A stretch of 11,464 nt of DNA, taken from IMG/VR virus record IMGVR_UViG_2663763286_000004, positions 1 to 11,464 of that record, one strand, 5' to 3'. Positions 2,560 through 2,793 of the stretch are shown piece by piece. The notes below the pieces were generated by a model that did not search any database, was not told the origin of the DNA, and saw only the letters and a list, made by a program, of their open reading frames with translations. This stretch comes from a virus (lineage: Duplodnaviria; Heunggongvirae; Uroviricota; Caudoviricetes). Position 1 is the stretch's first letter; each line of letters begins with the position of its first letter. A program made the translations under genes and the position numbers.

Positions 2560-2793
2560 ATGGGAAAAATAACTTTTGTAGTCGAATTTGAGGATGGTAA
2601 AGAGCCACCTGTTAGCGCCAATCTTGATGTTGCCGGTGGCAGGCTTGTTTCGGTTCTATTTGGTGACTACCGAGATGATTTCTTCCAACCAGAAGAAGTT
2701 GATGTAGTGCGAGAAGCATTAAACGAGCTAAGTGTTGATAACGATGATGCTCATGCGGAAATCATCAAAAAAATGGAACTGCTAACTCACTAA
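2560..2793 (+). CDS. Small strongly acidic protein (77 aa), unknown function
   Basis: ATG at 2560 preferred over TTG 2542 of the track; 18 Asp/Glu versus 7 Lys/Arg. Confidence 0.55.
   Translation: MGKITFVVEFEDGKEPPVSANLDVAGGRLVSVLFGDYRDDFFQPEEVDVVREALNELSVDNDDAHAEIIKKMELLTH

What the first reader, a model, noticed from the sequence alone, without database searches (positions are those of the whole stretch)
2560..2793. Small, strongly acidic protein as candidate DNA mimic or anti-defence factor
The 77-aa protein has 18 Asp/Glu against 7 Lys/Arg (net charge about -11). Small acidic phage proteins are frequently DNA mimics or inhibitors of restriction, CRISPR or other nucleic-acid-binding defences. 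It sits immediately downstream of the nuclease-fold gene.
Basis: inference. Interest (0 to 1): 0.45.

Follow-up and report, generated by a model that had tools for sequence, protein, structure and literature searches.

The report
Small acidic early phage accessory protein
This is a real, conserved 77-residue, very acidic protein from the variable "early accessory" gene pool of P1-like and lambda-like phages; its function is unknown, and nothing yet shows it to be a DNA mimic or an anti-defence factor.

Summary
Window 2560-2793 (+) encodes a 77-aa protein with 18 Asp/Glu, 7 Lys/Arg and pI 4.26. It is a real gene: it matches phrog_3876 over its full length, has more than 100 homologues across Enterobacterales, and shows dN/dS of 0-0.25.

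The window is a P1-like phage-plasmid. The gene lies in the known variable region between pap/pmgT and humD, and about one third of E. coli P1-like elements carry it. In chromosomal lambdoid prophages, relatives sit in the early accessory regions (exo-xis and nin) and have no fixed neighbour.

The protein has two modules. Residues 1-38 are a nearly invariant beta module. Related proteins join the same module to unrelated C-termini, including DUF551, an Ead/Ea22-like tail and, once, a Tad2-like anti-Thoeris domain. Residues 39-77 are a helical hairpin found only in this family. Its sequence varies but it is always acidic.

No sequence or fold match was found to any DNA mimic, anti-defence protein or solved structure. 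The anti-defence/DNA-mimic reading therefore remains plausible but untested. An equally good rival is a modulator of host DNA metabolism or of the lysis-lysogeny decision, like other exo-xis proteins. This is an ordinary but uncharacterised accessory gene, of modest interest.

The parts
2550..2554 (+). Shine-Dalgarno-like GGTGG, 5 nt before the ATG. The stop codon of the upstream 27-aa ORF (2555-2557) lies between it and the start, so translational coupling is likely.
   Evidence: Read directly from the sequence.
2560..2793 (+). Coding sequence of the 77-aa acidic protein, a member of phrog_3876 (stop codon 2791-2793).
2560..2673 (+). N-terminal module, residues 1-38: MGKxTFVVEFEDGKEPPV...GGRLV....D. 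It is nearly invariant within the family. It is also found at the start of many other small prophage proteins with unrelated C-termini, and once inside a longer protein.
   Evidence: It is predicted to be beta-rich, but the two models disagree on which strands pair.
2674..2790 (+). Family-specific C-terminal half, residues 39-77: the rest of the invariant D36-Y37-R38-D-D-F-F motif followed by a two-helix hairpin. It carries net charge -9. Acidic positions D39, D40, E45, D48, D60 and E73 are conserved, and E52, E56, D61 and D63 are partly conserved.
   Evidence: The helices (about 44-56 and 62-74) appear in both AF2 models, and pLDDT is about 90 in the second. This half is found only together with the N-module.
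2548..3647 (+). Mosaic block shared at 96-97% nucleotide identity with SJ46-type P1-like phage-plasmids. It holds the target, a 47-aa membrane ORF, a 97-aa ORF and a 124-aa ORF. Canonical P1 matches only from about 2963 onwards. The block is low in G+C (0.37-0.41).

Best explanation
The ORF is a real, stand-alone, early-expressed accessory gene. It comes from the pool of small mosaic proteins that lambdoid phages carry in their exo-xis and nin regions, and here it sits in the equivalent variable operon of a P1-like phage-plasmid (pap...humD, called the 'hea operon' in P7). The protein has two modules. The first is a conserved ~38-residue beta module that many related proteins share. I infer that this module is an oligomerisation or docking scaffold. 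The second is an acidic two-helix hairpin specific to this family. I infer that the protein works stoichiometrically, with no enzymatic activity, by binding a basic surface on another protein. The binding surface would be the conserved acidic stripe (E45-D48-E52-E56) plus the acidic loop (D60-D63). The target would most likely be a nucleic-acid-binding host or defence protein, which would be blocked or redirected at the start of lytic growth. What is shown: the gene is real, the family and its two-module architecture exist, acidity is conserved, selection is purifying, the gene occupies early accessory loci, and it has no fixed partner gene. What is inferred: early expression, the binding mechanism, and the kind of target. 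Whether the target is an immune system (true anti-defence) or part of host DNA metabolism or transcription remains open.
For: The gene is real and under protein-level constraint. Acidity is kept across members sharing 45-99% identity, while the C-terminal sequence varies. The helical hairpin is reproduced in two AF2 models built on members that are 47% identical. The N-module is joined to DUF551 (6 of 63 relatives), a Tad2-like domain (P0199, residues 135-205, E 1e-12), Ead/Ea22-like tails, Cys-rich tails and others. It is internal in P0235, so it is a true protein domain. About 79% of the unrelated tails are also net negative. In chromosomal prophages the gene is co-directional with RecT/Erf/Gam/Abc2/Kil and lies just before xis-int, or lies between O/P and Q beside DinI, a theta (Hot-like) subunit and RusA. 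In P7 a C1 operator is annotated ahead of the equivalent block. P1 genes at this locus are non-essential (PMC10695390), and the locus is 'variable region 8' of P1-like phage-plasmids (PMC9603915). About 219 of the ~599 complete E. coli genomes that carry pacB also carry the gene. No conserved neighbour was found.
Against: No binding partner is known or predicted. There is no sequence or structural similarity to any characterised inhibitor, DNA mimic or anti-defence protein. The most conserved part is the mildly acidic N-module, not the strongly acidic hairpin. A 38-residue hairpin is small for a DNA mimic unless it oligomerises. The topology of the N-module differs between the two models, and overall confidence is only moderate (pLDDT 77 and 82). 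The Tad2 fusion is a single protein. Early expression is inferred from synteny and from an annotated, predicted operator in P7. In this window the upstream end of the operon is interrupted by an IS3-family fragment, and no C1 operator precedes the gene.
Confidence: 0.4

Rival explanations
1. It is a strict DNA mimic and anti-defence factor. The acidic surface imitates the DNA backbone and blocks a restriction-modification, CRISPR, RecBCD-type or other DNA-binding immune complex. This is the first reader's reading, and it is a specific sub-case of the best explanation.
For: The composition is typical of DNA mimics: 23% D/E and pI 4.26. Acidic positions are conserved. The gene lies in early accessory loci that also carry Gam, Abc2-type anti-RecBCD and methyltransferase genes. 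The N-module is fused to a Tad2-like anti-defence domain in P0199.
Against: No homology or fold match to a known mimic was found. No Pfam or PADLOC hit was found. The sequence is absent from two anti-defence data sets. The hairpin is very short. Strongly acidic small ORFs are not rare in these regions (about 4%, a rough count), and exo-xis C-terminal domains are generally acidic.
Confidence: 0.15
2. It is a developmental or host-physiology modulator, like the characterised exo-xis proteins (Ea22, Orf60a, Orf61, Orf63, Orf73/TraR) or nin-region DinI and Hot. It would tune host replication, the SOS response or transcription, and so the lysis-lysogeny decision, rather than counter immunity.
For: The gene occupies the same genomic niches as these proteins. 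Its neighbours in P1-like elements and prophages include a theta-subunit homologue, HumD/UmuD, DinI and a TraR-type zinc finger. Exo-xis proteins are mosaic, have acidic C-terminal domains, and affect lysogenisation and induction (PMC10834534; abstracts listed).
Against: There is no homology to any of these proteins. No phenotype data exist.
Confidence: 0.3
3. It is an antidote or partner of the adjacent small membrane peptides (27 aa at 2474-2557 and 47 aa at 2842-2985), or of the very basic tiny ORFs upstream. In other words, it forms an antitoxin-like or chaperone pair with them.
For: The gene is tightly packed between two short hydrophobic ORFs. The 47-aa ORF travels with it in the P1-like elements examined, and the 27-aa ORF does so in most of them.
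Against: The lambdoid prophage homologues lack these neighbours. SJ46 lacks the 27-aa ORF. The basic ORFs occur in RCS47, which lacks the target, and are absent from SJ46 and 813R1, which carry it. No DNA-binding antitoxin-type domain was detected.
Confidence: 0.05
4. It is a decaying or functionless mosaic remnant. Its conserved 5' part would simply mark a recombination joint between phage modules.
For: The same ~110-bp 5' segment heads many different genes, which is the pattern expected at mosaic boundaries. Many singleton tails look frameshifted.
Against: dN/dS is far below 1 in both halves. Synonymous divergence in the 5' part reaches 0.35 while dN is 0.01, so the constraint acts on the protein and not on the DNA. 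Full-length architecture is kept across many genera.
Confidence: 0.03

Closest known systems
PHROG family phrog_3876 (unknown function) and its sister family phrog_6925 (N-module + DUF551)
   Same: The target matches phrog_3876 over its full length (E 5e-53). Residues 3-39 also match the start of phrog_6925.
   Different: Neither family has a known function, so membership gives a name but no mechanism.
Lambdoid exo-xis region proteins (lambda Ea22, Orf63, Orf61, Orf60a, Orf73)
   Same: They share the same genomic niche and early operon. They are small, non-essential and mosaic, with shared N-termini and variable, acidic C-terminal parts.
   Different: No sequence similarity was found. Those proteins are linked to the lysis-lysogeny balance, and nothing is known for this one.
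DinI, a small acidic SOS protein also carried in prophage nin regions; its acidic C-terminal helix is thought to mimic DNA when it binds RecA (my knowledge of the literature)
   Same: It is about the same size (~80 aa) and has an acidic helix. DinI genes lie a few genes away from the E. coli chromosomal homologue P0253.
Classical phage and plasmid DNA mimics (T7 Ocr, ArdA, PBS2 Ugi, lambda Gam, AcrIIA4, AcrF2)
   Same: The target is small, strongly acidic (pI ~4) and carried by a mobile element, in a position expected to be expressed early.
   Different: No sequence or fold similarity was found. The target is much smaller than Ocr or ArdA. A phosphate-like array of charges has not been shown.
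Tad2 (Thoeris anti-defence 2, Pfam PF11195)
   Same: One relative (P0199) carries the same N-terminal module in front of a Tad2-like domain.
   Different: The target itself has no Tad2 domain. The link rests on a shared module in a single protein.

Membership tests
phrog_3876 | Full-length match to the family HMM | tested here: met
   E 5.4e-53; residues 1-77 align to profile positions 1-77 of 77.
Lambdoid/P1 early accessory ('exo-xis / nin / hea') genes | Location in an early operon's accessory region, co-directional with it | tested here: met
   The gene lies just before xis/int, downstream of RecT/Erf/Gam/Kil, or between O/P and Q, or between pap and humD in P1-like elements.
Lambdoid/P1 early accessory ('exo-xis / nin / hea') genes | Variable presence; dispensable locus | tested here: met
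   The gene is in 219 of 5426 complete E. coli genomes, against 599 that carry pacB. It is absent from canonical P1. The locus is 'variable region 8'. P1 genes there are non-essential.
Lambdoid/P1 early accessory ('exo-xis / nin / hea') genes | Early expression under repressor control | not testable with these tools
   The only evidence is an annotated, predicted C1 operator ahead of the block in P7. No operator precedes the gene in this window.
DNA mimic proteins | Small size and strongly acidic composition | tested here: met
   77 aa, 23% D/E, pI 4.26; the trait is conserved in the family.
DNA mimic proteins | Sequence or fold relationship to a characterised mimic | tested here: not met
DNA mimic proteins | Surface carboxylates arrayed like a DNA backbone | tested here: inconclusive
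   Only a sequence-level stripe on helix 1 (E45-D48-E52-E56) and an acidic loop could be shown.
DNA mimic proteins | Competes with DNA for a DNA-binding protein | not testable with these tools
   This needs biochemistry.
Known anti-defence families (Pfam anti-defence domains; the PADLOC models that were scanned are defence-side, not anti-defence) | HMM match | tested here: not met
   The target has no hit. Only the relative P0199 carries a Tad2-like domain.
Type II antitoxin | Conserved adjacent toxin gene and a DNA-binding antitoxin-type domain | tested here: not met
   The neighbours differ between loci, and no RHH, HTH or AbrB-type domain was detected.

The most novel reading that the evidence does not exclude
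The ~38-residue N-terminal beta module may define an undescribed superfamily of plug-and-play early phage proteins. In this reading, one common scaffold or oligomerisation module presents interchangeable counter-defence heads: a Tad2-like nucleotide sponge, DUF551, and the acidic hairpin. The hairpin family found here would then be a new, minimal nucleic-acid-mimicking inhibitor of a host immune or DNA-repair complex.
Probability: 0.12. Interest if true: 0.6.

Novelty: new member of a known kind. Interest (0 to 1): 0.3.

Why it matters
If the protein does inhibit a host defence or DNA-metabolism complex, it would add a very small new inhibitor. It occurs in about 4% of complete E. coli genomes, mostly on P1-like phage-plasmids, elements known to spread resistance genes, and is more frequent in chromosomal prophages. 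The shared N-terminal module would then become a handle for finding further effector heads in lambdoid accessory regions. As it stands, the finding is an uncharacterised but ordinary member of the large class of small acidic early phage proteins.

Tried and rejected
- Pfam, NCBIfam and PADLOC scans of the target and its neighbours gave nothing for the target.
- A family profile searched against all PDB sequences gave nothing.
- A full-text search for the peptide and for the PHROG id found no paper. The supplements of two anti-defence studies do not contain them.
- A partnership with the upstream nuclease-like gene is rejected. Two ORFs lie between them, and SJ46, 813R1 and L012 have different genes upstream.
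- A partnership with the tandem basic mini-ORFs or the flanking membrane peptides is rejected, because they do not co-occur outside the P1-like block.
- The idea that the conserved 5' part reflects a DNA or RNA element or a recombination joint is rejected, because synonymous divergence there is high. No Rfam family lies there.
- The profile hits in large repeat proteins (P0132, P0155, P0216, P0237) were read and dismissed. They are generic beta-hairpin or low-complexity repeats, not homologues.
- A search with the C-terminal hairpin alone found it attached to no other domain.
- A passing resemblance of the beta-beta-beta-alpha pattern to HicB/UPF0150 or T7 Gp2 was not supported by any search.

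Full report
**1. What the window is**

The 11.5-kb window is a segment of a P1-like (Punavirus) phage-plasmid.
- On the + strand it carries HumD (4981-5370), Phd (5437-5664), Doc (5664-6044), PdcA and PdcB, Lpa, PacA (7926-9119) and PacB (9119-10612). These are recognisable from the ORF list and from annotated relatives.
- Upstream of HumD lies a run of small co-directional ORFs:
  - an Ead/Ea22-like protein (597-1085; Pfam E 8e-33);
  - three tiny, very basic ORFs (1085-1619);
  - a 171-aa protein with a PD-(D/E)xK-like motif (1621-2136), 99% identical to P7 Upf89.0;
  - a 114-aa ORF (2133-2477);
  - a 27-aa hydrophobic ORF (2474-2557);
  - the target (2560-2793);
  - a 47-aa membrane ORF (2842-2985), followed by further unknown ORFs.
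- This stretch corresponds to P1's pmgT-humD interval. The literature lists it as one of eight highly variable, low-GC regions of P1-like phage-plasmids (PMC9603915). All P1 genes in it are non-essential (PMC10695390).
- In P7 a C1 repressor operator, 'Op(hea)', is annotated right after pap. It is predicted to control this block, the 'hea operon'.
- In the present window an IS3-family orfA fragment (1-327, - strand) cuts the upstream end. C1-operator-like sites occur only at 7301 and 10603.

**2. The observation**

- Translation of 2560-2793 gives 77 residues with 18 D/E, 7 K/R, net charge -11.3 and pI 4.26, the most acidic of the window's main ORFs.
- The start is the ATG at 2560, preceded by GGTGG. 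Every homologue starts MGK/MSK.
- The statement that the gene sits immediately downstream of the nuclease-fold gene is not right, because two ORFs intervene.

**3. It is a real gene**

- The protein matches phrog_3876 end to end (E 5e-53).
- It has 104 homologues of 73-85 aa in Escherichia, Salmonella, Citrobacter, Enterobacter, Lelliottia, Cronobacter and other genera. All are annotated 'hypothetical'.
- A genome scan added Tatumella, Erwinia, Pantoea, Proteus, Providencia and Serratia.
- Among P1-like copies, Nei-Gojobori dN/dS is 0-0.25 in both halves. The 5' half reaches dS 0.35 with dN 0.01. The strong N-terminal conservation is therefore selected at the protein level and is not caused by a DNA or RNA element. 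No Rfam family lies there either.

**4. Distribution and mosaic position**

- The gene is near-identical in Salmonella phage SJ46 and Escherichia phage vB_EcoM-813R1, and it is absent from canonical P1. The P1 match starts only at window position ~2963.
- Stx phages share window 2129-2557, the two upstream ORFs, but not the target. The gene therefore starts its own mosaic block (2548-3647), which is low in G+C.
- The gene is found in 225 PLSDB plasmids. It is also in 219 of 5426 complete E. coli genomes, with 206 places on plasmids. PacB is found in 599 genomes. About one third of E. coli P1-like elements therefore carry the gene.

**5. Context outside P1-like elements**

- In chromosomal lambdoid and P22-like prophages the homologues lie in the early-left operon, downstream of cIII/Kil/Gam/RecT or Erf/Abc2. 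They are often the last gene before xis and int. This is the 'exo-xis/ea' region.
- An abundant E. coli subgroup (P0253, 81 aa) lies in the early-right operon, between O/P and Q. Its neighbours there include DinI, a theta-subunit (Hot-like) gene, NinE and RusA.
- Neighbouring genes differ from locus to locus.
- The basic mini-ORFs and the flanking membrane peptides of the window do not travel with the gene outside the P1-like block.
- It is thus a stand-alone cassette, not half of a two-gene system.

**6. Architecture**

- The alignment of 50 members (A1) shows two parts.
- Residues 1-38 are nearly invariant: MGKxTFVVEFEDGKEPPVsA..D..GGRLV....D. Invariant residues are T5, V7, E9, D12, G13, P16, G27 and D36.
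- The rest begins with the invariant D36-Y37-R38-D-D-F-F motif and ends with ELLT. In between it varies in sequence but keeps acidic residues at fixed positions: D39, D40, E45, D48, D60 and E73 in at least 70% of members, and E52, E56, D61 and D63 in about 60%.
- The C-terminal half carries most of the charge. In the target it is -9, against -2 for the N-terminal part.
- A profile search of 1.8 billion representative proteins returned 155 hits. Only about 25 are full-length. Most share only the first 36-40 residues and then continue with unrelated sequence.
- Among 63 such relatives, six carry DUF551, one an Ead/Ea22-like tail, and one (P0199) a Tad2-like anti-Thoeris domain (residues 135-205, E 1e-12, above Pfam's cutoff).
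- Other relatives have Cys-rich or short acidic tails.
- In P0235 the module is internal (residues 205-242), so it is a true domain.
- Clustering the tails gave about 80 groups. This number is inflated by frameshifted singletons. 79% of the tails are net negative.
- Conversely, a profile of the C-terminal hairpin alone retrieved only proteins of 54-83 aa. Every one I read has the same two-module architecture or is a truncated form of it.
- The N-module is therefore promiscuous, and the acidic hairpin is specific to this family.

**7. Structure**

- AF2 on A1 gave pLDDT 77. AF2 on a 47%-identical member with a 74-sequence alignment gave pLDDT 82.
- Both models predict two helices, at about 44-56 and 62-74. 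pLDDT there is about 90 in the second model.
- The strand pairing of the N-module differs between the models. This is compatible with a module that completes its sheet in an oligomer or on a partner, but that is an inference.
- Helix 1 places E45, D48, E52 and E56 at i, i+3, i+4 spacing, which would form one acidic stripe. This is inferred from the sequence.
- Nothing similar was found among solved or predicted viral structures.

**8. Function**

- No family library, solved structure or paper assigns a function.
- Several points fit a protein that binds and blocks or redirects a basic, probably nucleic-acid-binding, protein early in lytic growth:
  - the conserved charge;
  - the small size and lack of any catalytic motif;
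  - the stand-alone organisation;
  - the early accessory location.
- These regions do hold counter-defence genes (Gam, Abc2, methyltransferases), and one relative carries a Tad2-like head. The anti-defence idea therefore stays on the table.
- The same regions also hold modulators of host replication, the SOS response and transcription: theta/Hot, HumD, DinI and TraR-like Orf73.
- The exo-xis proteins characterised so far act on the lysis-lysogeny decision and typically have acidic C-terminal domains.
- I therefore assign 0.4 to the general 'acidic stoichiometric binder of a host or defence nucleic-acid-binding protein'. The narrower strict DNA-mimic anti-defence factor, which falls within that general reading, is scored separately at about 0.15. 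The developmental or host-physiology modulator gets about 0.3.
- The antitoxin-like and remnant readings are disfavoured.

**9. Novelty and verdict**

- The family already exists in PHROGs as an unknown.
- The new points are descriptive:
  - it is a two-module protein;
  - its N-module heads many different early accessory proteins, including a Tad2-like one;
  - it has moved between the lambdoid exo-xis and nin regions and the P1 'hea' region.
- This makes it a new, uncharacterised member of a known kind of gene, the small acidic mosaic early accessory proteins. It is not a new kind of system.
- Interest is modest (0.3). The most novel reading still allowed is a plug-and-play counter-defence scaffold with a minimal DNA-mimic head. 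I give it about 0.12.

Noticed in passing
window 1085-1619 (+): Three tandem tiny ORFs of 58, 58 and 62 aa, all extremely basic (pI 11.3-12, net +14). The last two are clear paralogues; both start MKNRKAK. They are 93-100% identical in phage RCS47 but absent from SJ46 and 813R1. Their function is unknown.
   Followed up: partly
window 2474-2557 (+) and 2842-2985 (+): Two very short hydrophobic ORFs flank the target. The first is 27 aa ([27 protein letters not shown]) and overlaps the stop of the previous gene through an ATGA. The second is 47 aa and matches phrog_5525. Both look like single-pass membrane peptides. They accompany the target only in P1-like elements.
   Followed up: partly
window 1-327 (-): An IS3-family orfA-like ORF of 108 aa reaches the window edge on the opposite strand. 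An insertion sequence therefore interrupts the upstream end of the accessory operon, where P7 has its C1 operator.
   Followed up: no
window 10694-10883 (+), and 10600-11464: Rfam finds an isrK-like sRNA (10694-10771, 60.8 bits) and a C4 antisense RNA (10796-10883, 75.9 bits) directly after pacB. The DNA matches the icd/ant immunity region of vB_EcoM-673R5 and RCS47, not the c1 region that follows pacB in P1. This element therefore has a different arrangement at this point.
   Followed up: partly
window 7301-7317 and 10603-10619 (+): Two C1-operator-like sites match ATTGCTCTAATAAATTT with 3 and 2 mismatches. About 0.05 such sites are expected by chance. One lies ahead of lpa and the other at the end of pacB.
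   Followed up: no
window 1621-2136 (+): The 171-aa 'nuclease-fold' protein has a D...ExK motif (…DAMGF…LIEAKCS…). It is 99% identical to P7 Upf89.0 and matches phrog_9263 and phrog_631. A longer relative in a Citrobacter prophage has a weak MmcB-like Pfam hit.
   Followed up: partly
L013 (Acinetobacter idrijaensis, 369-bp contig) and L014 (assembly labelled Chryseobacterium sp. 18061): Copies of an otherwise strictly enterobacterial gene appear in non-enterobacterial assemblies. The 369-bp contig is 100% identical to the E. coli version and is probably contamination. The 'Chryseobacterium' contig carries a lambdoid prophage context and may be mislabelled.
   Followed up: no
L042 7979-8233; L043-L045: Lambdoid nin regions that hold the E. 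coli chromosomal homologue also carry a DNA polymerase III theta (Hot-like) gene, DinI and a dATP/dGTP pyrophosphohydrolase. The P1 'hot-humD' variable region and the lambdoid nin/exo-xis regions therefore seem to draw on one shared cargo pool.
   Followed up: no
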